From the human T2T-CHM13v2.0 reference genome, Homo sapiens, in NCBI RefSeq assembly GCF_009914755.1, contig NC_060930.1: a stretch of 64,000 nt of DNA. One strand, given 5' to 3'. The notes below the pieces were generated by a model. It was not told where the DNA came from and did no database searches. It saw nothing but the letters and a program-made list of their open reading frames with translations. Below are positions 21,461-62,391 of the stretch, one piece after another (positions within the stretch are counted from its first letter, which is position 1; the number at the start of each line of letters is the position of its first letter). Made by a program: the position numbers and the translations under genes.

Positions 21461-23849
21461 ACATCAATGTAAGAATTCAAAACAGAGAGAGATCTCATCT
21501 ATTTTGAGAGATGGGGAATGAAAAATATAAAAATTTCAAAGTATGTCATTAGATTAGTTTGAAGTTTAAAACAGGGTGGGGGAGAGAGAAAAAAAGAAGA
21601 AAAAAACTGAAAAAAGATACTCTGCAAGGTAATATAATTAGACCAAGATCACATAGCTGCTAAGGGGCAAAACAAGACTGAAATACATGTCATCATGTTT
21701 GCAAATTCCATGCTTCTACTAAACCACACTGCCAGATTGTTGATTTAAGGCCATATAAAAGAGTTTGATTGCCATACTAAGATTATTCTTAAATCTAAAG
21801 CTATATGAATCCAGCTTTTTCTTCACGGCTTATAAGAATAGAGAAAACCAGTTAAGTGAAGAAAACATAAAGCTACAAGGAGATGGGGCATATAAATTTG
21901 AAGCTCATATGAAGAATATTTCACCCAGAGCAATGAAGAGAATGAATGACAGCACAAAGGGATGAGAGAAAGGAGCCACCCATAAGAAGGCTATAAAAAT
22001 AGCCAGTCCAAAGAAGAGATAGAAGAGCAAGAATTACAACCATGAAAAGGCAAATAAACAAGGAAAGATGAATTTAGGAAGAATTCACCAAACTTAGTAA
22101 CAGATTGGATTTGGCAACAAAGGAAAGGGAATAATTGAAGTGTCAGTTAACAAAGCAATAGTGTTGTTGTGAACAGAATATATAGGAATGTCACTTGAAA
22201 GGTTGCTTCCTAGATGTGGTTGGATATGTTGAGGGTGTGATATACGTAAACAATGAAGCCAATATCCAGCAATCTTAGACAGAAGCTACTTAGATAAGGA
22301 TGGTCATACTGAGAGTCTGGTATAGAAGATGAACAAGCAGATATCCAGCAATCATCCAGAAATCCAACTTTGATACTTAGGCAAGAGGACAGGCCTGAAG
22401 GGAGAGACTTTAGTTACCTGTAAGAAACTAACTCACAAACCCATGAAGGCAAATAGGACAGTACCTCAGAGAATTCCTGCAGTTGGAAGGCTACAAGTCA
22501 GTTCTTCCTTTGTTGGTGCTCCAGGAAATCAAATATAAGTATAAAATATAAATATAAAATGGGTCAAAGCCATTTTAAGATTAGAAATACATGGGCTCCA
22601 TAAAAAGTGAATACACACTCAAAGTAAATGTGGTTCATATTTAGCTCATGTCTCATCTCAAACATTTGATTTTAATTTTTATTAACATTTATTAATTTGT
22701 TCATGTCCTAGTTTAATTTGCTACATGAAGTCATTTGTATTTTGATGAGATCAAAAAGTGTGAAACCCTCACCTTTTGGGCTTTACTCTGTCTGTTCCCA
22801 GCATTTATCTCCTTCATAGTCTTAGTAAAACAGAAATGTATATGCTCCCCAGATCAGCATACGTTCAAGACATTGAGGAGTGAAGAAAATCAGTTAATTC
22901 ACTTTCTGCCATCACTCCATTTTCTTCTCATATCGAACATAAGCTGTACTTCATCACTATAAGCCTATATCCTTGTTTAAACAAGAAATGTAGTACTGAA
23001 TATGAAACATGGCTGTTTTTTAAATTTCTCTCTCTAGGGAATTTTGTGTGTGTGTGGTGCTTGTGTGTATATTCTTTGATCCTGGTACTTGAATAGTTTG
23101 CCAAAGTCTATTTTCCCCGTGTCACCAAGCATGACAGACCCCTGAACCCAAAGACTCATGAATATTTTAATAACAAATTTCCCCCAGTAAAAATTAAAAA
23201 AAAAAATTTTTTTTTGACCCTTAAATGAGTCAAACTCTGTCTCTTTTATGTCCTTTCGTGGATCTCTCCTGAGTTCAGCTATGCAAACAGTCCCAATATC
23301 AGGAGAATCACTGATCATTGTATTTCCCATTTTCCCAAGGAAACGTTGAACATTTACTGGAACCCTCCCAAAGTAACTAAACGTCCAAATAGTTACAAGA
23401 AGCTATCATGAAATATTTTCAGCCCCAGCTAATTTTATCAGAAAGGGCTGTTGTTCTAAGTATCCGTACTGCTGTTCTTGTGGAGAAATTCAAAAAGAAC
23501 CTGTTGTTTCTCTTCTCATATAAAACAGATTTCCTCGTTAAATCTCAATGAAAATCAAGTAGTTGTTCAATGTATGAGAAGCCAAAAATGTGTAGGCTAT
23601 TATTAGAAGACAGCAAACAATTGAAGACACGAATGGAACAATTTATATTTTAAATGAAAATCAAGAAGTTGTCCCTCTGAACTGTGAATCTCTGAAAGTT
23701 GGAACTTTTGATAAAGGCCGAGGCTGCCTTAAATAAAAACTAGAGAAAGAAAATGTAAAGATCATAACACCGTAGCCGTTCCAGTTCATTGTAGAATAGA
23801 ATTGGTGTGATTCCTCCTCAGGAAATTTAAACTATTTTGATTTTCTGAA

Positions 23850-24024
23850 TTTCCGCAAACACAACTCAGAAACAGGGTTGAGACTAGGTTGCTGCCAAGC
23901 TGAAAGACTGAGCTGGGAACCAATCAGCGCGCAGCGTGTCTGTGTGTGACACACACGTAATCACAGACACACTCGCAGCCTGACTTTTTTTTTTTTTAAC
24001 TGTTAGATATCCAAACCTACAATC
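23850..24024 (+). promoter_or_regulatory. H1-12P: Relic H1 promoter (AC box, CCAAT; no TATA)
   Basis: AAACACA 23857-23863; AACCAATCAGCGCGC near 23918-23932. Confidence 0.65.
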
Positions 24025-25103
<1,079 letters not shown>

Positions 25104-25249
25104 CCCCAATTATAATAAAGCTTTTTGCACCAATTCCGTGAGGGGAGGGGGAACGGATAGAGGCAAGAATGCTTACTTACCTTGAGTGAACAGAGGTTCC
25201 AGTTTACGGACAGCAACAGTAAACAGCAACTTTTATAGAAAAGGTGGTT

Positions 25250-25265
25250 GGCTCTGAAAAGAGCC
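25250..25265 (-). terminator. H3C4: Histone 3' stem-loop
   Basis: Reverse complement GGCTCTTTTCAGAGCC. Confidence 0.97.
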
Positions 25266-25300
25266 TTTGGGTTTTGGTTAGCACACATTCACAAGACAAT

Positions 25301-25720
<420 letters not shown>

Positions 25721-25759
25721 CTAAAACCTGCTAAATGACGAAAAAACGAAAGTCTAGCC

Positions 25760-27316: not shown

Positions 27317-28405
<1,089 letters not shown>

Positions 28406-44626: not shown

Positions 44627-44694
44627 AATCGGAAAAATTATTCCCTAGAAAACGGTGAAATTCAATATTAAAGCTCTTTATGTGAGACTTGAGT

Positions 44695-44710
44695 GGCTCT
44701 GAAAAGAGCC
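44695..44710 (-). terminator. H2BC8: Histone 3' stem-loop
   Basis: Reverse complement GGCTCTTTTCAGAGCC; HDE AAAAGAGCT. Confidence 0.97.
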
Positions 44711-44739
44711 TTTGAGTTTTAAAGCACCTAAGCACACAT

Positions 44740-45844
<1,105 letters not shown>

Positions 45845-45893
45845 AATGATTACTAGTCAAATCCGTCAGTGATCCCGAGTCCCAGAAACCAAA

Positions 45894-45909
45894 GGCTCTT
45901 TTCAGAGCC
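45894..45909 (+). terminator. H2AC8: Histone 3' stem-loop
   Basis: GGCTCTTTTCAGAGCC. Confidence 0.97.
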
Positions 45910-46319
45910 ACCCACCTTTTCTGTAAAGTGCTGGAATACACATACGATGCCTGAAATCTCAATGTTCACTGTCCTAGTTTTTAACGAACGCTTCTGACGT
46001 TACTGGTCAGTTCTTTATTGAAATCCTTGCTCACATTTCATGCACTAATTTATCTTACTGGTGTTTCTTTGCAGTAAAAATGCGTTTATAAAGGTATACA
46101 AAATAGAAACCGAGGTTGTGACACCAAGGTTTCACTGCGTTATTTTGTGTATAGGTCCATGCTGTGTATACAAATTTATCATTAATACACAGGCTGTTTA
46201 TTCATGTGCACTTGTCAGAAAAGGGTGAAATATTAATACAGAAACGAGAGAACAAAGAAGGATAGCTGCCCATTAGCATTTCAGGGCGGGCTTTTTAAGT
46301 TTTAAAGATGACTGCATTC

Positions 46320-47716: not shown

Positions 47717-48164
47717 TTAAATGTTAGGACAAGGTTGCTGAATGAGATTATTAAAAAAATTAATGCCCCTAGGGTTCTAAATAATTGCAGTTATATGTGT
47801 TCCACTGAACAGAAGTTATTGGCATCACAAATAATTTGCATCAAAAATAATTTCTGGTGATACAAATAACAGAAATTATTTGCATCACCAGACAAAAGCC
47901 TCCAAGAAGTAACTTCGATAGTTTGATACCTTTAATCAATGGTAAATTGTGAGATGATGTAAGCACATTTCCCTGCAAACTTTGTAAAACCTATAAATTT
48001 TTTATAGTGGGATACATTCTTCCCCCTCCCTTTTTTCCTCACAAGTCTTACAATGTTTCTTAAATAAAATTTTCACTAAAACACGATTAAAATATAGCAA
48101 TTGCAAGATAAATGTCTATGAAGCCCCATAGTATAACTCCCTGACATTCTTTACTCAATCAAAT

Positions 48165-49508
48165 TGGGGCTCAGAAACAATACCCCAAAATGAAGGCCAA
48201 AGAAGCAACCTCAGAAGCAAAATTTTTCTGTGACTTTCTCCTGCCCTCTTGTCTCTCAGTCCCATTCTCCCCTGAGGCTAGACATAGAAACTAGAATTCC
48301 GGTTTCCCAAGGTGGCTTATGACAACCAGAATCCTTTTTCCCCAAAGCCAACCATAAAAACTAAAAATATTACTCTAACTTCCCTTCCAACTTTTCGTGT
48401 AAAAACTGGACACAGAGAAATTATTTGATCCACCTTGTTTAATTGCAGGTCATAAGACCCCATTCCAGAGATGGAGCTGTCCCATACCCAATACCCAGAA
48501 GGAAGGAATGCATGTTCAAAGAGGTGAGGGATGAAATGAAAATTCTAAACCCCTTTGACAGAATAATGGACCCTCCTTTGGCTAAAAGACCCCAAAAGTT
48601 TAAGTTCCCAGGCATGACAGGATGGAGGCTGCACATCCTGTTTGTTAATACCCCTCTTCCCCTTTCTAATCACTGCTAGATTTTCTCAAAGTCCGATTTG
48701 AGGGAATAATACACCGGAAAGCCCTTTTACTTACTTTATCTGGCCTCTTCCACCCTCCTCCATGGTGGTCCAGACAAGACAGATATTAAGGACCATAGAG
48801 TTTCTTGATAAATGACTGCAGGCCCACAACTGGTTGTGACCAGTCTCCTGAGAATGCAGATCATGGACTTCTGCCCTACATTTCAGTTTTATATATAGGA
48901 CCTAATTATAACTCATTTAAATGTTAAATCTTCACCCCAAAGTGATCATGGGACATATCTTACATACATGTAAACCTAATACACATCTGATTGGGTGTCC
49001 TTCATGAATATTCATAGCTCCTCCTATAACCTGTTGAATATGTATATTTCTCCAACCCAATCCTCAAAAATTCCTGTTTTATCCCTCCCTGCTTCCCTCC
49101 AAGTGCCTGTCTCTCAGCAAACCAAAGCTACCCTTCCCAGCCTGTCAGAATGGCCACCTTGCAGGCTGCAACTCTTTGAGAAATAAAGCTCCTTTGCAAA
49201 TGTATGAACCTTCTCATTCTTCAGTTGACAGAGGCCAAGAAGAGTCTAGACAAACAGGCCTTGCTGGGTTTCTCCACTCGGTTTATTAACGTTTCATCAT
49301 ACCCTTTTTATCCAATCAAATTTCTACAAGGTTGTCCATATGTTGTTGAACCTAAGCATAGAATTGGACAATTTTTCCTGTATCTTTGTGTTTTCATCCT
49401 AAAGGCTCCCTTGAAGACGTTAATAAATTTGTGTAACTTTTCTCCAATTAATCTGCCTTTTGCAAGCTAATCTTACAGCAAAGCTTCAGAGCTCGCCTTG
49501 GCTCCTAT
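48165..49508 (+). mobile_element. MER39-like ERV1 LTR, split by a MER4-group LTR
   Basis: GGGGCTCAGAAACAATACCCCAAAATGAAGGCC...; the two halves join collinearly with the copy at 59482-60097. Confidence 0.75.
48525..49230 (+). mobile_element. Solo LTR, MER4-group ERV1
   Basis: TG...CA ends; 4-bp TSD GAGG (48521-48524 and 49231-49234); AATAAA near the 3' end. Confidence 0.8.
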
Positions 49509-49769
49509 ATAATAATAAACACTTTAACTTTTTATTCTTTTTAGACTTCAAAGTAATTGACCTGATGTTCTCATCCGAGTTTTTCTTGGAGCTTATGTAG
49601 CTTCCAGGAATAGCAAATTATTTTCCAGACTTTCTTCTTTTCATGAAATGGCATTGTGCTTCCACAGTGATTTCTCTTCCCCTTTTTTTAAACACCAGAA
49701 TTAGCAGTTGTAGAGGCTGTCCCTCAAAAATATATGATCGAGGGGAAAATATTCATATAACATTTCTTT

Positions 49770-50200: not shown

Positions 50201-51384
<1,184 letters not shown>

Positions 51385-52289
51385 TCCTATGGGAAATTGT
51401 GTTCAGGTATGGAAATAGTGATGGAAATTACTGATTAATACAAGTGAGCTGCTAAGTTCTTATGTAATCATGTAAATTTTGCACTGACTTCTAAAATAAA
51501 GCTTTACAAATATTTAGAGATGAGGATTATGAAAGGAACTGAAGGTAGGTTCCAATGGCAAAACACCGGATTGACAGATTTAAGAACACTGGGGAGGAAA
51601 TAGAACTATGGGGCATAAAGATGGAATTTCCTTAATGGTTCTCACTGACTGTGACCTAAAGTTTATCTTTTGATTTTGGAAACATTTTTTAGATGTAGAT
51701 ATTAACATTCTAATAATAGAAATGAAAAAACTAAAATGAAAATGAGAAAACAGAAGATAATATCAATAAACAGGTCTTGGGCCTCAGAAGATGAGATGTA
51801 GGGAGTGTGGAGAGGAAAAGCACAGAGGGTGCATAGCTCTCATTAACAAACGGCCCAGCCCACAAATACGTAATCATATTATACAAAAGGATTTCAGTTC
51901 TTCCCTTGCTTCCTATGAAACAATTTTGCCAACATACCTAACCGTTTTACCGTGATTTAAAGTGTACAGAATTTTCTTTTTCTGAAAAGGAGAGAAGCAA
52001 GGGACTCATATATATTTCAGATGTGAGATTGAAACGCACGACAATGTGTAATTTCAGTCAAGACTTGCCCACGAGTCCTAAGATAATTCAAATTTGCAAA
52101 ATAGACACTAACTTGAAAGGTGCAATTGTATCAATCCTGTGGTTAGCAGAATTTTGATGAATGCCCTAAAATAGGGCAGGTTTAACAGAATTCAGGGAAT
52201 GAGCAGGAATGCACAAAGCATCCTTTGTCTCCTCTCCACTCCAGCTTGCAGACATCCGCGGGCATTTGCGGGCAGTGATAAATTTGGTT

Positions 52290-52402
52290 TAGCCGTTTCC
52301 CCTCCCTGGAGGACGGGGGCTCCAGCATATTCGTGATGTCAATCGCCTTGGACTACATGCCAGCGTCATTGCGAACCTGCTACACTTTACAAAATAGCTT
52401 TC
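52290..52402 (-). pseudogene. Highly decayed H2B relic
   Basis: ESYFV (52402-52388); QVRNDAGM*SKAIDITN (52379-52329; 36/51 nt identical to H2BC7 [17 protein letters not shown]); TCCAGGGAG (SRE) 52310-52302. Confidence 0.7.
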
Positions 52403-52484
52403 CAATGAGAAAGAAAACCTACTGGGAAAGAAAAACAAAAAGAAACTAGACCTTGCAACGGGCACGCACGCGCACTATCCCTCT

Positions 52485-52700
52485 CTGAAATATTTATAGT
52501 ACGCTTACACAAACGCGAACTTGTAAATCAAAACTCTGCCTGAACCAAAGTAGCCAATAGATTAAAAGTATGTAAATTAGGAATTCCCAAACTGCTCTTT
52601 TTATTGGCTAGGAAAAGAACACCTTACAGGGAATCCGATAGGTTAATTCACAATAGTGTTAGGCTGTAATGTCATTCCTTAAGAATCTTTTCCAGTAAAC
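52485..52700. promoter_or_regulatory. Relic bidirectional H2B/H2A promoter
   Basis: Minus-strand TATAAATA near 52491-52498; CCAAT 52554; GTATGTAAATTAGG 52568-52581 (13/14 to the H2AC7/H2BC7 octamer context); ATTGG 52603; TTCACAAT 52647-52654. Confidence 0.65.
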
Positions 52701-52730
52701 ATTTGTTACTTTTTCAAAGTAATTGGGAGC

Positions 52731-52876
52731 TGTTGAGTGTGGAAGCGAAAACCAAGTTAAGAAGTCCTGTTATTTGGGTGAGTCCAGTTCCTATAAAAGT
52801 TCTGTTGGATGTGTCTTAAATTGTTCGGTGCACCTCAGCTCTCTCCCGCAGGGATCCGGAGAAACTGCGCCATTGT
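52731..52876 (+). pseudogene. Very decayed H2A relic (tentative)
   Basis: Short collinear H2A-like blocks GTGGAAGC, TCCAGTTCC 52793, GTGCACC 52828, CCCGCAGGG, GCGCCATTGT 52867 at the position expected from the relic promoter. Confidence 0.4.
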
Positions 52877-53439
52877 TGTCTTACAGAGAAACAACCTTCT
52901 AACACTCTCTTCGCCGCCATCTTTTTCAAGATTTTAAATTGAAAATACTTTTTTTGACGGCTCTTGCCATTACGTCTGGACGTTTTAATTTCAACAAAAC
53001 GAAATAATAGTGTTAAGTTCTTTGAGTCAAACCCGATATTACAGAGGTAGGGATTCCAGGATATTAGAATTTTACTATAACACAAATGAAACACAAAGTT
53101 CCTTATGCTTAACAGTGTATCTTAGAAAACCTTGTTTGAGTGAATTAGCCTTGTACTCTATAATGAAACGAGGAATCATTGAGAGATACTTAGGCAACGG
53201 ATTTTAAATGAGTGAATAGGGAAGGGAAAAACTTCAGGAAAATGCAGAAAAAAGCAGCGGAGATTTTGGAAAAAAAAATTCTAAAGCACTTTCTAACGCA
53301 AACACATTCGATTTTTTATAGCTAAACAGGATAACAGATCAGTCTATTAAGTTAAATGATCAATGTCTTTGCAGGTCATGGTCTACGTGAAACATCAAAG
53401 AAACCTGTAACGGAAAACGACTTGTTTGAAAGAGCCAGT

Positions 53440-54038
<599 letters not shown>

Positions 54039-54068
54039 ATTGTTTTGAGTACAAACCTTAAATCCAAA

Positions 54069-54084
54069 GGCTCTTCTCAGAGCC
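54069..54084 (+). terminator. H3C6: Histone 3' stem-loop (TCTC loop)
   Basis: GGCTCTTCTCAGAGCC; HDE GAAAAGGGCT. Confidence 0.95.
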
Positions 54085-54214
54085 AACCACTTTGTCCGTG
54101 AAAAGGGCTGTAATCCTTTGAGACGCATTAGACCACTAAACTGCACTGATCCAAATAGACATTTGAAATAGTGGCATTCAGTTCCCTCGATGCTTCATTT
54201 AAATTTCCAAATTT

Positions 54215-54756
54215 AAGCGCTCCCTCAGGTTTTCGCCTAGGGCTGGGCCTCCCTACGCTGTTCTCCATTGGTTTAGCTGGCTTTGTTTTGCTGTTCAGGC
54301 CCTCTGCTGCTTTCTTGTACATTGTTCTCGTTTTCTAAACTCCTGGCCACTTAATTGTACCCTGCTTAACCCATCCTCTTGTTTTCTGGCTCAACGCTCT
54401 TTCATGTGGTGGCCTGCATTTTAGGTCTTAACTGCATAGGCTTTCAACGCCTTGGTTTTGCCTTTCCTTGATGTTTATTTGACCTTGCCTGAGGGGCCAG
54501 CGCTTTTGATCTGCATCAGGCTGCCTTACTCCACTAGTGTTTTGAGACCCAGCTACTTGCCGGCGACGGTCGGTGCCTTGGGTGCGGTCAACGTTACTCT
54601 CTGTGCGCCTGATACTGGTCTAAGGCTAAGGTTATTAGCTGGAACACCTAGACCCGTGGCACTAACACACAGCTCTTGCAGACTTGACAGCCTTGCATAG
54701 GTTCTAAACTGCAGGAGTCAAAGCAACGAAGGTGCAGATGGGTGTGTCTCAAACCT
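54215..54756 (-). pseudogene. Decayed histone H1 relic convergent with H3C6
   Basis: AGG TTT GAG ACA (cf. MSET) at 54756; VFQLITLA (cf. VSELITKA); LGLKTLVE*GSLMQIKSAGPSGKVK at 54552-54478 (14/25 aa identical to H1-3); K/A/P-rich tail; 3' end approximate. Confidence 0.85.
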
Positions 54757-54758
54757 GA

Positions 54759-55044
<286 letters not shown>

Positions 55045-56340
55045 TAAAAGAACTTTTCAACTTTAGTAAATACCCTGTCTTAATCAAATCTCATTAAAAG
55101 TACCCCATATTTATCAACAAAACATGAAAATCCTTGGACGGCTTCAAAGTTCTTACAGAAAATATTCTGCCTTTCCTTTCCATACAAAGGCACAGCTTCG
55201 AAACTGGTAGGTGAAGGGAAGGAAAATAAGGAATTCTGTTCCGAAATCATACAGGCTGTTATTTGGAAATACAGAAGGGTGTATGTACTATATGGGATAC
55301 TGCATGCTATTTGGAAGAATTTTGTTTATTTAAACATTTCAGCAAATTTCTCAGTTTTGATATGGGGTGCAGTATTTTTAACTCATTGAGAAATTTCTAC
55401 TAACTTTTTTGAATGTGCTCTTTTCCCACTAGTTGCACTAAGGAAAGAGGTTAGTCATGTGGTAAAATTAATAGTGACAAAGCTGTAAATAGCTCTGCAG
55501 GCCAAGGTAGCCATAGTAAGAAGTCCTGGAGATTTATGGAAGAAATTTTTGTTCATGGAAGCCTGTCAGACATGAAGATGTGGGTCTTGTGAATTGGAGA
55601 TTCAGTGCGTGAGGAAAACAGCCTAACTATCCATAATTAAGGTAACTACTGTCAGATATTTGTAACATAGTGAACATCCTATTATGCTAGATAGAAGCAT
55701 TCTCTATTTGAATGTTGTTTCCTGTATCCTGTACTTTCTTTAAGATTCTAGCTCAACAAGTTTTAACCTGTATTTCTCTTACAGCTACTGGAATTCAGTA
55801 CGTGAGGACTTGGACTTGGTGGGCACAGAATGCATCTTTTTATATCATTAAATCCACCAGAACATCTAGCATGGTCATTTGCCTAAAACAAAGCCTCTGG
55901 AAATTTAGTCAAGTTGAGATGTAAAATAAAAGATTACTGAACAGAATTTAACATTGAGTGCATTCCTATTTACAAAAATAAAAGATTAGATAAAGTTTAT
56001 ATAATTTTAATATATAGTTTTTCTAAATAGGAAAAATCCACACTTATTGAGTGGCTGCAATGGGCCAGAAGTCATGCAGTATTTTATGAAGCCTCCAAAA
56101 ATGTAAGTTCAATAGTTATCTATTATCAAAAACAAATTTAAAAACTGAAACTAAGAAAATTTCAGATAGTGCTGGAGCCAAAACTTTCCCCACTAGGCAT
56201 TACTGTTTTAAATAAACAGCCTCAGCAGAATCCTCATCAGTTACTCCTGAGGACTTTATCACCTGGAAGAGCTACTAACATGTTTAATTTTTTCATACAC
56301 AATAAAATAAATGGATGTTTTAAAATTTACAGGGTCTTAG

Positions 56341-56850: not shown

Positions 56851-57650
56851 ATAATAAGAAAATGAACTTTACAGGGTCTTATATGATTGTGAAGTTCTAT
56901 TATATTATAATTAGTACTGCAAATTGCACAGAAATGTAACTGATGTACATACAGGAAAATATGACATTAACACTGACAAATTTTAGCCTTTCTGCATACT
57001 ATTCAAATAGTAGCCTTGATTTAACCACACATACACAGGCAACTTTTTTCAAAGGCATACACTGAGATAGTAGTAAATAATACCAGATGTCTTTAAAATA
57101 AATTGTGATTTTATTTGGGGAAGATCTCAAATCTGACCCCTGTAAGATCATACTTTCTATGTACTTGTTGGTACACTATATAGTATATATCCATTTCACA
57201 GTTACATAGTTGCCTGCAAGTACTTATAATTAAAATAAAACAAGTATGTAATCTCTGAATAACCAATAGCTTCTTCATATTATAAAGATAATAGCTAAAA
57301 CTCAAGACAATTCAGAAATCCCATTTTATTATTTCTCCATACTCACCCGACTCGACCTGCCAACAGTAAATATTGATATGTAACATTTTGGAATTTGCAA
57401 GGCAAAGGTGAAATTTTTTTTCTTTGTTTTTATTTTGTAGTTGCCCCCACTAAAAATTGTATATATATAAAATGGTATACTTCCGAAGATAAGGTAGTCT
57501 GTAAATCAGGCCATGGAAACAAGGGTCATGAAAGGGGCAGAGAAATTTGTTACTCTTCTTTTCCCACACAGGAAAACAGAAAATGAAACCACTGAATTTG
57601 ATGAGTATCTGACAATAATGTAACCCAACTGATGGAATTTTTTAATTCAG

Positions 57651-60097: not shown

Positions 60098-61555
60098 ATA
60101 CCTGTATTTTTCACTCATTTTCAAAAAGATTATTTTGAATAAATATTTCAAATCCTCCCATTTATTCAGATCCCCTTCTCAATCAAGCCACTCTCATACA
60201 GGGAGGTATTTTGGCTTTCTCTACAAAGAAGAAATTGTGTGATGTAGCCGTGGTTCCCAAAAAATTAAACTCCTGCTTATAACTAGAAAGATGTCACAGG
60301 CTACATCCTTTTCTTTGTGGGGAGGGAGGCAAATAATAATGTAAAATATAATAAAATATTAACTAATAAGCAGAATGTAAACAAAGAAGTAAGATTAAGA
60401 GGTATTATAATCATGAGGGATTTATAGTATTTGGTCCCACTGCAAACTTGTTCAAGAGTTCATGACTTGTTTTGTGCTATGTATTCTGGAGATTCTGGAA
60501 ATCTATAGATGCCTTCTCAAAACCATGTTTTTAAAAAATACTTATACAGGGTAAGAAAGGTAGTGACACTAAATTTTTTTTTCTTAAAGTCTGTATATGT
60601 GCTTTAGTTACACATCAAATAATAAGATCTAGCAGCAAGTATAATGTTGGCTTGAAAGGTTCACAATTAGTGTAAACTATTTCAAGACACCTGTAATAAG
60701 TACAAAGTGATATGAAAATATCTATGATTATCATTGATGTGAAATCCAGTGATTAGCTGCCTGTACTCACAAAGGAAATAAGCAAATTGCATTTAGGATT
60801 TGTGAAAATGTAATTTTTTCCCATCTAGAGTCCCATAACCATCTGTAGAAATCAGATTTTGTCGAGATTTCTCCGTACTGTTAAGTGGGCTTTTCTAAAA
60901 TCAAAAACAAAACAAACAAAAAATAACCTCAGCCTCCCAAATACAATGTAAACAGTAGTACATCCAAGTCAGCCCAACTTCCTATAGCCCATTTATTTGT
61001 CCTGGTAACCCCAATTTCAGGCTTCTTCCTCCCTTCTCCAAGTTTTTTCATTTATTTTTCCCTCTCTATTTCTTATCTAATCACCAAATATGTATTGGAT
61101 AGCTAACTCTAGCTCCCTGGTTCAGCTCAATCTGTGAGAAAGCAATTTGGGAAAAGAAGCAGATTATAAGCTGACAGAGGTTCCTTTCATACTTTTTACT
61201 ATCTCTCAGCATCAGGGTGGTAGCAATACTTGTGCAGATTGACGCAGAATGACAAGGTGAGTAGTCTCCAAAAAGAGAATTCCATTTGGAGAATTCCATC
61301 TGAGGGGGAGGTGGAAAAAAAACAGGCTTTTCGACTACGTCCCAGCATACACAACTGTTAATATCGCAACCTGATTGGTGAAAAATTTTCTCTCGGAAAA
61401 ACCACGCAAATAAAAATCTAAGAATACGTTCTGATTGGTTAATTCAGCAGGCTCTGCAAACCAACAGAAAAAGCAAGTTTTACAAAACTGAGCCAGAGGC
61501 TATGATGAACTATCCCTCCGATTGGCTTAATACAAGAATTGCATTTTTTTCTAAC

Positions 61556-62391
61556 ATTACCTGGACGTGGGAAGCAAGACCACACTCGCGCCAAAAGCAA
61601 GACCTGCTTTGCCACGCGGGCCTACAGTTGCCAGTAGGGCTAATACACCGCGTCCTCCGCAAATACAGCTACTCCGAGCGGGTTGGACCAGCATGCTAGT
61701 GTTACCTGGCGGCAGTGCTAGGAGGTTAAGAGTAGGCAGAAATAAATGAACAAGCAAGAGAGCCCCTGGGAAAATAAGTCCTGGAGACGCTGGCCACTGA
61801 CAGAAAAAGACAATGGGCACACTTTTTATTTTGAGACGGAGTCTCGCTCTATCGCCCAGGCCGGAGTGCAAGTGGCGCGATCTCGGCTTACAACTTCCGC
61901 CTCCCGGGTTCAAGTGATTTTCTACCTCAGCCCCCAAGTAGCTGGAATTACAGGCGCGCGGCACCACGCCTGACTAATTTTTGTATTTTTTTTTAGCAGA
62001 GATGGGGCTTCACCATGTTCTTCAGGCTGGCCTCGAACTCCTGACCTCGTGATGCGCCCGCCTCGGCCTCCCAAAATGCTGGGATTACAGGAGAGCCACC
62101 TCGTCACGCAGTGCAGCCCCCACACTATTTACAAATACAGTACCTGAGGGCCGATATCCCAAAGCTAAGGCTTATCAAAGGCCTGCGAAAAGACAGACAC
62201 CGGGCACCACCAGCAGTTGGCCATTCTCAACGACCAGCTGCACAAGATCGTGGGCCGGAAGCACCTTGGGCATGCCACGTACTGCTCACAACCAGGACGG
62301 GATGTGCTCAGGAAGTCACCTCAACGCTAAAGTAAACTAAAGCATTTACACCACATCCCTGTGCCAGAAATAAAATTTTTTCAGGGCCACT
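61556..62391 (+). pseudogene. H2AC9P: Histone H2A pseudogene interrupted by a 416-bp insertion
   Basis: GGACGTGGGAAGCAA; HAGLQLPVGLIHRVLRKYSYSERVG; resumes at 62141 with TACCTGAGGGCCGATATC; half stem-loop TTTTCAGGGCCAC; ATG lost; upstream ATTGG boxes. Confidence 0.88.
61823..62120 (-). mobile_element. AluS inside the H2A pseudogene insertion
   Basis: TSD-like CACACTTTTT 61818-61827 / CACACTATTT 62121-62130. Confidence 0.9.

What the first reader, a model, noticed from the sequence alone, without database searches (positions are those of the whole stretch)
52290..52880. Fossil divergent H2B/H2A pair whose promoter is better preserved than its coding sequences
Seen: a minus-strand H2B relic (ESYFV; QVRNDAGM*SKAIDITN, 36/51 nt identical to H2BC7; SRE) and weaker plus-strand H2A blocks flank about 300 bp holding TATA(-) 52491, CCAAT 52554, an octamer variant GTATGTAAATTAGG (13/14 to the live H2AC7/H2BC7 promoter), ATTGG 52603, and TTCACAAT...CTGTAA matching H2AC8's TTCACAAT...CTATAA. 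CpGs are still relatively frequent here. Inference: regulatory function may have been retained after both genes died.
Basis: partly seen in the sequence, partly recalled or inferred. Interest (0 to 1): 0.7.

Follow-up and report, generated by a model that had tools for sequence, protein, structure and literature searches.

The report
Decayed histone H2B/H2A gene-pair remnant
About one kilobase upstream of the live histone H3 gene H3C6 lie the worn-down remains of an extra H2B/H2A gene pair: a short H2B fragment and the shared promoter survive and the H2A coding part is gone, so this is an ordinary old gene fossil that now overlaps an annotated upstream start of H3C6.

Summary
Partly confirmed.

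- **H2B relic: real.** A nucleotide HMM built from 12 live human H2B genes hits 52402..52329 (minus strand, codons 36-64). E is 5.6e-6 over the whole window. The fragment has a 13-nt deletion and an in-frame TAG.
- **Promoter: homologous to live H2A/H2B promoters.** Conditional nhmmer gives E 1.1e-4, and 0 of 1000 shuffles reach that score. 50 of 71 conserved promoter columns match. The closest relative is the neighbouring H2BC8/H2AC8 promoter.
- **H2A coding blocks: not supported**. A weak candidate H2A 5'UTR/start lies at 52890-52983 instead.
- **"Better preserved" holds for completeness only.** Per-site identity is about 70% in the promoter and about 73% in the H2B fragment. The proximal octamer, two CCAAT boxes and the H2A TATA are mutated.

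Present-day activity is plausible but not shown. CpG o/e is 0.72-0.96 against a background median of 0.27. The supplied RefSeq table also starts a spliced, polyadenylated H3C6 isoform at 52650, inside the fossil promoter.

I found no name for this relic. It is a new member of a known kind and of modest interest.

The parts
52329..52402 (-). H2B coding fragment, codons 36-64, with a 13-nt deletion (10+3), a frameshift and an in-frame TAG
   Evidence: nhmmer with an HMM of 12 live H2B coding sequences: E 5.6e-6, 19.8 bits. blastn 38/51 to H2BC8 and 38/52 to H2BC7. 52-59 of 74 identities to the 12 live genes, K2P 0.24-0.39.
52302..52312 (-). Possible further H2B trace: an exact 11-mer equal to live codons about 91-94 (T-S-R-E). 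It would imply a 63-nt in-frame deletion
   Evidence: Colinear exact 11-mer in blastn, E about 5 on its own. Not supported by nhmmer.
52491..52498 (-). H2B-side TATA box (TATAAATA on the minus strand), intact
   Evidence: Read directly. Aligns with the H2B TATA column of the live promoters.
52505..52514 (-). Position of the H2B-proximal octamer, degraded. Coordinates approximate, read off the sequence
   Evidence: Aligned opposite the ATGCAAAT block of the live promoters but no longer matches it.
52554..52558 (+). CCAAT box
52568..52581 (+). Distal octamer-like 14-mer, 13/14 to the live H2AC7/H2BC7 promoter
   Evidence: 2 matches in the window at up to 1 mismatch (the live site and this one), 0.03 expected.
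52573..52612 (+). Best-scoring promoter core segment, including ATTGG at 52603-52607 (CCAAT on the minus strand)
   Evidence: nhmmer with the intergenic HMM: E 0.044 over the whole window. E 1.1e-4 when only the 358 nt upstream of the H2B relic are searched on one strand; 0 of 1000 dinucleotide shuffles reach that score.
52630..52634 (+). H2A-proximal CCAAT position, mutated to GGAAT
   Evidence: Alignments.
52647..52669 (+). TTCACAAT ... CTGTAA: the H2A-side element plus a mutated TATA, arranged as in H2AC8 (TTCACAAT ... CTATAA at 45346-45370)
   Evidence: 3 matches in the window, 0.01 expected. The third match, at 56869, has no supporting homology. Spacing data.
52650..52777 (+). First exon of the second RefSeq H3C6 transcript. 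It starts inside the fossil promoter, ends at a GG|GTGAGT donor, and is spliced to 53375. The transcript ends at 55946, after an AATAAA
   Evidence: Exon coordinates come from the gene table supplied with the finding. Splice sites and the poly(A) signal were read.
52890..52983 (+). Weak candidate for the H2A 5'UTR and start codon region (ACG TCT GGA CGT at 52972-52983)
   Evidence: Local alignment to the H2AC8 region from TATA to codon 4: score 15, against 10.6 +/- 1.4 in shuffles; 8 of 500 shuffles reach it. blastn 61% over 97 nt, E 0.1. A 14-mer match with 3 mismatches. No nhmmer support.
51801..55300 (.). Continuous CpG-preserved domain (o/e >= 0.4) holding both the relic and H3C6
   Evidence: Domains around the other live genes are mostly 1000-1900 nt. 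The one around H2BC8/H2AC8 is longer, at 4200 nt.

Best explanation
This is the remnant of a third H2B(-)/H2A(+) divergent gene unit in this part of the human HIST1 cluster. It is most likely a DNA-level tandem duplicate of the adjacent H2BC8-H2AC8(-H3C5P) unit.

After the duplication the two copies decayed in complementary ways. The upstream copy kept H2B and H2A and lost its H3, which is now H3C5P. This copy kept its H3, which is H3C6, and lost H2B and H2A.

What survives is:
- a 74-nt H2B fragment (codons 36-64);
- the roughly 180-nt TATA-to-TATA promoter core, at live-like spacing but with about half of its boxes mutated;
- perhaps a trace of the H2A 5'UTR and start about 220 nt further on.
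The rest of both coding regions and both 3' stem-loops are gone.

Shown: homology of the H2B fragment and of the promoter, absence of detectable H2A coding sequence, and CpG retention.

Inferred:
- The relic is old. K2P of about 0.3 suggests roughly 100 Myr or more.
- It sits in a germline-hypomethylated domain continuous with H3C6.
- Its remaining CCAAT boxes plus a C-A initiator at 52649/52650 now act as a weak, TATA-less upstream alternative promoter. That promoter would give the annotated spliced, polyadenylated H3C6 isoform.

My odds: the fossil is real, 0.9; transcription initiates there, about 0.5; the promoter remnant is maintained by selection, about 0.25.
For: Fossil identity:
- H2B HMM hit E 5.6e-6, against a best E of 4.8 on the reversed window.
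- Promoter homology: conditional E 1.1e-4 with 0 of 1000 shuffles reaching it, and 50 of 71 conserved columns against 32.8 +/- 4.8 in shuffles.

Nearest relative:
- The TATA-to-TATA core scores best against H2BC8/H2AC8: about 10, z = 4.7. 1 of 300 shuffles and 0 of 300 GC-matched genomic controls reach it.
- That score lies within the live-versus-live range of this promoter subfamily (4-26).
- TATA-to-TATA spacing is 171 nt, against 167-195 nt in the live pairs.

Duplication model:
- Order and orientation repeat three times: H2BC7-H2AC7-H3C4, H2BC8-H2AC8-H3C5P, and relic-H3C6 (gene table).
- H3C5P matches H3C6 at 72% over 118 nt (family D6).

Present activity:
- CpG o/e is 0.72-0.96 against a background median of 0.27. 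The CpG-preserved domain spans 51801-55300.
- The supplied RefSeq table starts an H3C6 transcript at 52650. Its donor GG|GTGAGT, its acceptor and an AATAAA about 20 nt before the 3' end at 55946 were read.
- The live triad has the same architecture: an H3C4 transcript starts at the H2AC7 start site (27759) and is spliced to just before the H3C4 coding region.
- HIST1H3E (= H3C6) is reported as the one H3 gene among ten replication-dependent histone genes expressed as polyadenylated mRNA in differentiated human tissues (PMC5100578, passages read).
Against: - Per-site identity of the promoter (70% at conserved columns, and inflated by alignment) is no higher than that of the dead H2B fragment (70-80%). 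The sequence therefore does not require selection.
- The H2B-proximal octamer, the first GATTGG, the H2A-proximal CCAAT and the H2A TATA are all mutated.
- The annotated start at 52650 is about 47 nt upstream of the ancestral H2A start predicted from H2AC8 spacing. It rests on an annotation I could not inspect.
- PMC5100578 never uses 'upstream', 'alternative promoter', 'transcription start' or 'first exon' (0 occurrences of each). Its Table 1 lists the HIST1H3E poly(A) mRNA as not spliced.
- No homology was detected in the spacer between the H2A position and H3 among the three triads. The duplication model therefore rests on order, orientation and the promoter's best match.
- The H2B fragment itself is not closest to H2BC8: the best is 59 of 74 to another gene, against 54 of 74 to H2BC8.
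- CpG retention could simply reflect nearness to H3C6. A 1.9-kb CpG-preserved domain also surrounds the dead H1-12P.
Confidence: 0.6

Rival explanations
1. Purely neutral fossil. The unit died long ago and every part decays at the same rate. The promoter looks better only because it happened to escape large deletions. The annotated upstream H3C6 start is low-level, unselected transcription in an open, highly transcribed cluster.
For: - Equal per-site identity in the promoter and the H2B fragment.
- About half of the promoter boxes are mutated.
- The whole-window promoter hit is only E 0.044, 7.5 bits. That is about 7% of the 104-120 bits of the live promoters. The H2B fragment keeps about 4.5% of the live 435-450 bits.
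- The annotated start is off the ancestral start position.
- CpG-preserved domains also surround other dead histone genes, such as H1-12P.
Against: - CpG o/e reaches 0.96 in sequence that would have lost its CpGs if methylated for about 100 Myr. Several of the H2B fragment's CpGs fall where the live consensus has none in the nhmmer alignment.
- A curated database annotates a start and a consensus splice donor here.
- TATA-to-TATA spacing is kept within the live range.
Confidence: 0.35
2. One reading: the bidirectional histone promoter is still maintained as such after both genes died, that is, S-phase, Oct-1/NF-Y/NPAT type and active in both directions.
For: An intact minus-strand TATAAATA, two CCAAT boxes, the 13/14 octamer-like site, live-like spacing and CpG retention.
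Against: - The H2B-proximal octamer position no longer matches. From recall, not from any call here, this is the element that gives H2B promoters their S-phase control.
- The H2A TATA is CTGTAA.
- The surviving octamer-like site carries a change inside the ATGCAAAT core.
- The supplied gene table lists no minus-strand transcript.
- No histone stem-loop remains on either side to make a histone-type RNA. Rfam finds only the H3C6 stem-loop at 54064-54109.
Confidence: 0.08
3. Chance resemblance in AT-rich intergenic DNA.
For: - The genome-wide protein search did not list this place.
- tblastn on the region found nothing on the claimed strand and place.
- The TTCACAAT...CTRTAA pattern also has one match with no homology behind it, at 56869.
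Against: - nhmmer E 5.6e-6 for H2B, against a best E of 4.8 on the reversed window.
- The promoter homology is colinear, correctly oriented and correctly spaced, and 0 of 1000 shuffles reach it. 0 of 300 GC-matched genomic controls reach the H2BC8/H2AC8 score.
Confidence: 0.02

Closest known systems
Live divergent H2B/H2A pairs of human HIST1, especially H2BC8/H2AC8 (window 44677-45914) and H2BC7/H2AC7
   Same: Same orientation (H2B minus, H2A plus). Same order of promoter elements: H2B TATA, octamer, CCAAT boxes, TTCACAAT, H2A TATA. TATA-to-TATA spacing is 171 nt, against 167-195 nt. The best promoter match is to H2BC8/H2AC8.
   Different: Only codons 36-64 of H2B remain, and they are broken. 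There is no detectable H2A coding sequence and no stem-loop. About half of the promoter boxes are mutated.
Named histone pseudogenes of the cluster, such as H2AC9P and H3C5P in this window
   Same: In-situ decayed copies of clustered histone genes. H2AC9P also keeps part of its promoter (units HMM positions 491-884 at 61369-61721).
   Different: Far more decayed: 19.8 bits here, against 75.7 + 29.8 bits for H2AC9P. It covers 29 of 126 codons, so it fails the HGNC rule of at least 50% identity over at least 50% of the reading frame, as quoted in 10.1101/720235. No H2B is named between H2BC8 and H2BC9 in the human or mouse tables of PMC9526256.
The H2AC7-to-H3C4 read-through transcript of the live triad (RefSeq alternative H3C4 transcript, exons 27325-27759 and 25245-25730)
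   Same: An H3 mRNA isoform that starts at the H2A side of an H2B/H2A promoter lying upstream in the same orientation, and is spliced to just before the H3 coding region.
   Different: There the H2A gene is alive, the first exon is H2A mRNA and the intron is GC-AG. Here the H2A gene is gone, the exon is 128 nt of non-coding sequence with a GT donor, and the start lies about 47 nt upstream of the ancestral start position.
Polyadenylated isoforms of replication-dependent histone genes (Lyons et al. 2016, PMC5100578)
   Same: HIST1H3E (= H3C6) is one of the ten genes reported there. The RefSeq isoform that starts in the fossil promoter reads through the stem-loop to an AATAAA at about 55925.
   Different: That paper does not describe an upstream start or a 5' intron for HIST1H3E (0 occurrences of the four terms searched).

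Membership tests
Replication-dependent H2B gene or named H2B pseudogene | Recognisable H2B coding homology | tested here: met
   nhmmer E 5.6e-6, codons 36-64.
Replication-dependent H2B gene or named H2B pseudogene | HGNC pseudogene rule: at least 50% amino-acid identity across at least 50% of the reading frame (as quoted in 10.1101/720235) | tested here: not met
   Only 29 of 126 codons are alignable. 9 of 17 residues are identical in the best protein block. Nothing else was found.
Replication-dependent H2B gene or named H2B pseudogene | 3' histone stem-loop | tested here: not met
   An Rfam scan of 51000-54500 at E<=10 finds only the H3C6 stem-loop at 54064-54109.
Replication-dependent H2A gene or pseudogene | Recognisable H2A coding homology on the plus strand downstream of the promoter | tested here: not met
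   No nhmmer hit even at E<=1000 on 52670-53600. Nucleotide score at the 90th percentile. Protein rank 135 of 686. The only trace is a 5'UTR/start candidate reached by 8 of 500 shuffles.
H2A/H2B divergent (bidirectional) promoter | Sequence homology to live intergenic regions, colinear with and next to the H2B gene | tested here: met
   Conditional E 1.1e-4 with 0 of 1000 shuffles. 50 of 71 conserved columns. z = 4.7 against H2BC8/H2AC8.
H2A/H2B divergent (bidirectional) promoter | Two outward-facing TATA boxes at live-like spacing | tested here: inconclusive
   The H2B-side TATAAATA is intact. The H2A side reads CTGTAA instead of CTATAA. Spacing is 171 nt, against 167-195 nt.
H2A/H2B divergent (bidirectional) promoter | Intact octamer (ATGCAAAT block) next to the H2B TATA. 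Its role in S-phase control is recalled, not from a call | tested here: not met
   The proximal position no longer matches. The distal copy has one change inside the core.
H2A/H2B divergent (bidirectional) promoter | Multiple CCAAT boxes | tested here: inconclusive
   Two are intact (52554; 52603 on the minus strand). Two aligned positions are mutated (about 52533 and 52630).
Active alternative promoter of H3C6 | Transcription initiation, open chromatin and factor binding at the site | not testable with these tools
   Only indirect evidence: the RefSeq exon in the supplied table, CpG retention and consensus splice sites.
Element under purifying selection | Cross-species constraint above the flanks | not testable with these tools
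   No other vertebrate genome is held. The within-genome per-site comparison shows no excess preservation.

The most novel reading that the evidence does not exclude
An H2B/H2A bidirectional promoter that lost both of its genes perhaps 100 Myr ago has been taken over by the neighbouring H3C6. Its leftover CCAAT boxes would drive a TATA-less upstream start whose spliced transcript reads through the histone stem-loop and is polyadenylated. The fossil would then be the switch that lets this one H3.1 gene be expressed outside S phase in differentiated tissues. The live H2AC7-to-H3C4 read-through transcript would show the ancestral state of that arrangement.
Probability: 0.25. Interest if true: 0.55.

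Novelty: new member of a known kind. Interest (0 to 1): 0.3.

Why it matters
The relic adds an unnamed, very old member to the catalogue of human histone pseudogenes. It also suggests that this stretch of HIST1 grew by tandem duplication of an H2B-H2A-H3 unit, followed by complementary loss: H3C5P died in one copy, and H2B/H2A died in the other.

If the promoter remnant really drives the upstream H3C6 start, it would offer a concrete, testable cis-element. It could explain why H3C6 is the H3 gene reported as polyadenylated mRNA in non-dividing tissues.

If it does not, this is simply a well-documented neutral fossil. It would still be useful as a local yardstick of decay inside the cluster.

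Tried and rejected
- tblastn of the window's histone proteins against 51500-53600 found no hit at the claimed H2B or H2A places. The relic is only visible at nucleotide/profile level.
- The genome-wide six-frame searches with H2B and H2A proteins listed 55 and 58 matches but not this place.
- A DNA search of the whole genome with 52250-53050 found only itself. No other copy of this stretch was detected. That search skips very common words.
- nhmmer found nothing for the H2B N-terminal tail or the H2B 3' part.
- An Rfam search for stem-loop relics found none.
- blastn between the three triads found no homology in the H2A-to-H3 spacers.
- Internal direct, inverted and tandem repeats that might explain the roughly 220 nt between CTGTAA and the candidate H2A 5'UTR: none found.
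- A third TTCACAAT...CTGTAA match at 56869-56893 was checked and has no histone homology.
- A high H2A protein score at 23251-23550 (minus strand) proved to be a weak, unconvincing alignment.
- A bacterial-type promoter/terminator scan was run and is irrelevant here.
- Four literature searches found no description of this relic or of the upstream H3C6 exon. Figures and supplements of PMC9526256 were not seen. Its Figure 1 marks 'present but unannotated' genes and might show this relic.
Full report
**Setting.** The window is part of the human HIST1 cluster (gene table supplied with the finding). The finding lies 0.7-1.3 kb upstream of the H3C6 start. I read 51900-53700 and translated both flanks of the putative promoter.

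**Check of the observation.**
- minus-strand TATAAATA at 52491-52498;
- CCAAT at 52554;
- the 14-mer GTATGTAAATTAGG at 52568-52581;
- ATTGG at 52603;
- TTCACAAT at 52647 and CTGTAA at 52664.

The 14-mer differs at one base from the live H2AC7/H2BC7 promoter site at 27867-27880. At up to 1 mismatch these are the only 2 matches in the window, against 0.03 expected. At up to 2 mismatches there are also 2, against 0.55 expected.

TTCACAAT followed 8-12 nt later by CTRTAA occurs 3 times, against 0.01 expected. The three sites are H2AC8, this place, and 56869-56893. The last has no histone homology, so the pattern alone is not decisive.

The minus-strand peptides LESYFV, QVRNDAGM*SKAIDITN and SSRE are present.

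**The H2B relic is real.**
- From the window's own genome I collected 12 live H2B/H2A pairs. I built nucleotide HMMs of the H2B coding sequence, the H2A coding sequence, the intergenic promoter and the whole unit. The relic was not in any model.
- The H2B model hits 52402..52329 on the minus strand (model positions 106-192, codons 36-64). E is 5.6e-6 and the score 19.8 bits for the whole 64-kb window. It is the only H2B hit below E 0.9 outside the three annotated genes.
- The alignment shows a 10-nt and a 3-nt deletion and a TAG. On the reversed window the best H2B hit has E 4.8.
- blastn gives 38 of 51 to H2BC8 and 38 of 52 to H2BC7. Identity to the 12 live genes is 52-59 of 74 (53 of 71 for one gene), with K2P 0.24-0.39.
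- Nothing is detectable for the N-terminal tail or for anything 3' of codon 64. The 'SRE' block is one exact 11-mer. There is no stem-loop relic.
- At protein level the relic is marginal (rank 15 of 686 tile-strands). The genome-wide six-frame search missed it.

**The promoter is homologous to live H2A/H2B promoters.**
- Over the whole window the intergenic HMM gives E 0.044 for 52573-52612, and the unit HMM gives E 0.4 for 52561-52647. Both are colinear with the H2B hit.
- Searching only the 358 nt upstream of the H2B fragment, on the expected strand, gives E 1.1e-4. 0 of 1000 dinucleotide shuffles reach that score; their maximum is 5.8 bits against 7.6.
- Added to the alignment of the 12 live promoters, the relic matches 50 of the 71 columns that at least 75% of live promoters share. 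40 shuffles give 32.8 +/- 4.8, with a maximum of 43.
- The TATA-to-TATA core scores best against the adjacent H2BC8/H2AC8 promoter: about 10, z = 4.7. 1 of 300 shuffles and 0 of 300 GC-matched genomic controls reach that score. It falls inside the live-versus-live range of that promoter subfamily, 4-26. Pairwise, 105 of 170 aligned bases are identical.
- TATA-to-TATA spacing is 171 nt, against 167-195 nt in 11 live pairs.

Element by element:

| Element | State |
|---|---|
| H2B TATA | intact |
| Proximal octamer | lost |
| First GATTGG | lost |
| Distal octamer-like site | 13 of 14 |
| ATTGG | intact |
| H2A-proximal CCAAT | now GGAAT |
| TTCACAAT | intact |
| H2A TATA | CTGTAA |

**The H2A coding relic is not supported.**
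- There is no H2A HMM hit at E<=100 in the window apart from the two live genes, H2AC9P and noise. There is none even at E<=1000 when only 52670-53600 is searched on the plus strand.
- The nucleotide Smith-Waterman score of tile 52626-52875 is 28. That is the 90th percentile of 836 non-histone tile-strands.
- The protein score of tile 52651-52950 ranks 135 of 686.
- A different and mutually exclusive candidate exists. 52890-52983 aligns to the H2AC8 region from just after its TATA to codon 4, ending in ACG TCT GGA CGT. The score is 15 against 10.6 +/- 1.4, and 8 of 500 shuffles reach it.
- If that candidate is real, about 220 nt of unexplained sequence separates the fossil TATA from the fossil 5'UTR. 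No repeat or duplication explains it. I leave the H2A side open.

**Is the promoter 'better preserved'?**
- In extent, yes. The full core survives without net length change, while forced alignments of the two coding regions are no better than shuffles (131 of 344, z = -0.4; 118 of 339, z = 0.6).
- Per site, no. Conserved promoter columns match at 70%, a figure inflated by alignment since shuffles reach 46%. The H2B fragment matches at 70-80%.
- In profile bits, the promoter keeps about 7% of a live promoter's score (7.5 of 104-120). The H2B fragment keeps about 4.5% (19.8 of 435-450), and H2A keeps none.
- Uniform neutral decay plus large deletions in the coding parts fits these numbers as well as selection on the promoter does.

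**Evidence for present activity.**
- CpG observed/expected is 0.72 over 52290-52880 and 0.96 over 52230-52529. The latter ranks 5 of 340 background tiles, whose median is 0.27 and 95th percentile 0.81.
- The CpG-preserved state is continuous from 51801 to 55300, through H3C6. Most other live genes sit in domains of 1000-1900 nt. The H2BC8/H2AC8 domain is longer, at 4200 nt.
- Several CpGs in the H2B fragment fall where the live consensus has none in the nhmmer alignment. This suggests long-term escape from methylation-driven decay. That is an inference.
- A 1.9-kb CpG-preserved domain also surrounds the dead H1-12P, so this feature is not specific.
- The supplied RefSeq table lists a second H3C6 transcript with exons 52650-52777 and 53375-55946. 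Its first base is the A of a C-A step, 3 nt into TTCACAAT. It lies 96 and 47 nt downstream of the two intact CCAAT boxes and 14 nt upstream of CTGTAA.
- From H2AC8 spacing (TTCACAAT at -52, CTATAA at -33), the ancestral H2A start would be near 52697. The annotated start is therefore about 47 nt off.
- The exon ends at GG|GTGAGT, the acceptor is a good one, and an AATAAA lies about 20 nt before 55946. The isoform is thus spliced in its 5'UTR, reads through the stem-loop at 54064-54109 and is polyadenylated.
- Lyons et al. (PMC5100578; passages read) report HIST1H3E as the single H3 gene among ten replication-dependent histone genes expressed as poly(A) mRNA in differentiated human tissues. They do not mention an upstream start. 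Their Table 1 calls the mRNA unspliced.

**Evolutionary reading (inferred).**
The order H2B(-), H2A(+), H3(+) recurs three times: H2BC7-H2AC7-H3C4 (inverted), H2BC8-H2AC8-H3C5P, and relic-H3C6. Three observations bear on this:
- The relic promoter is closest to H2BC8/H2AC8.
- The candidate H2A 5'UTR also matches H2AC8.
- H3C5P matches H3C6 at 72% over 118 nt.

This fits a tandem duplication followed by complementary loss. Against it, the spacers show no homology and the H2B fragment is not specifically closest to H2BC8.

In the live triad, RefSeq also has an H3C4 transcript that starts at the H2AC7 start site. It is spliced, through a GC-AG intron, to just before the H3C4 coding region. The upstream H3C6 exon may be the leftover of that same arrangement.

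**Known or new.**
- The relic covers 29 of 126 codons. It fails the HGNC pseudogene rule quoted in 10.1101/720235.
- No H2B is named between H2BC8 and H2BC9 in the human or mouse tables of PMC9526256.
- Four full-text searches found no description of the relic or of the upstream exon. I could not see the figures of PMC9526256.
- It is a new, very decayed member of a known kind. Function is unproven and interest is modest.

Noticed in passing
window 61369-61721 and 62139-62334 (+): H2AC9P is larger than its annotated span (61587-61720). The H2A HMM matches positions 5-169 at 61561-61721 (E 6e-23) and positions 170-387 at 62139-62334 (E 5e-9), so the pseudogene appears split by about 417 nt of inserted sequence. 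The unit HMM also matches promoter sequence from 61369. No H2B partner was seen.
   Followed up: partly
window 27325-27759 and 25245-25730 (-): The alternative H3C4 transcript in the supplied table starts at the H2AC7 start site and leaves H2AC7 two codons before its stop. It uses a GC donor (AAGG|GCAAGT) and joins at TTTAG|CAGG, 19 nt before the H3C4 ATG. It is an H2A-to-H3 read-through/spliced transcript.
   Followed up: partly
window 47811-47889 and 48416-48434 (+): Four copies of a 19-nt unit containing ATTTGCAT-like octamers lie just downstream of H3C5P (family D8). Copies of a 22-nt CCAAT-containing piece of the H2BC8/H2AC8 promoter lie at 48150 and 49307 (D10). A 19-mer resembling the end of the H2BC8 coding region lies at 49581-49599 (D20). 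The only nhmmer signal nearby was a unit-HMM hit with E 14 at 48701-48527. These may be chance matches or another, even more decayed fossil.
   Followed up: partly
window 52422-52445 (-): On the minus strand, where the H2B N-terminal tail should be, the sequence is a 20-nt pyrimidine run ending in CAG, which looks like a 3' splice acceptor. The supplied table lists no minus-strand transcript here.
   Followed up: no
window 23201-25100: A 1.9-kb CpG-preserved domain (o/e >= 0.4) lies around the pseudogene H1-12P with no live gene inside. The best H2A-like protein score among non-histone tiles also falls here (23251-23550, minus strand, score 52), but the alignment is unconvincing.
   Followed up: partly
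window 54064-54109 (+): The H3C6 stem-loop scores 33.4 bits against Rfam Histone3, just under the family's gathering score of 34.
   Followed up: no
G000:C6:25751283-25751573 and 25749947-25750066 (outside the window): Weak H2B-like matches with several stop codons (46% and 58% identity) appeared in the genome-wide search. I did not check whether they are named pseudogenes.
   Followed up: no
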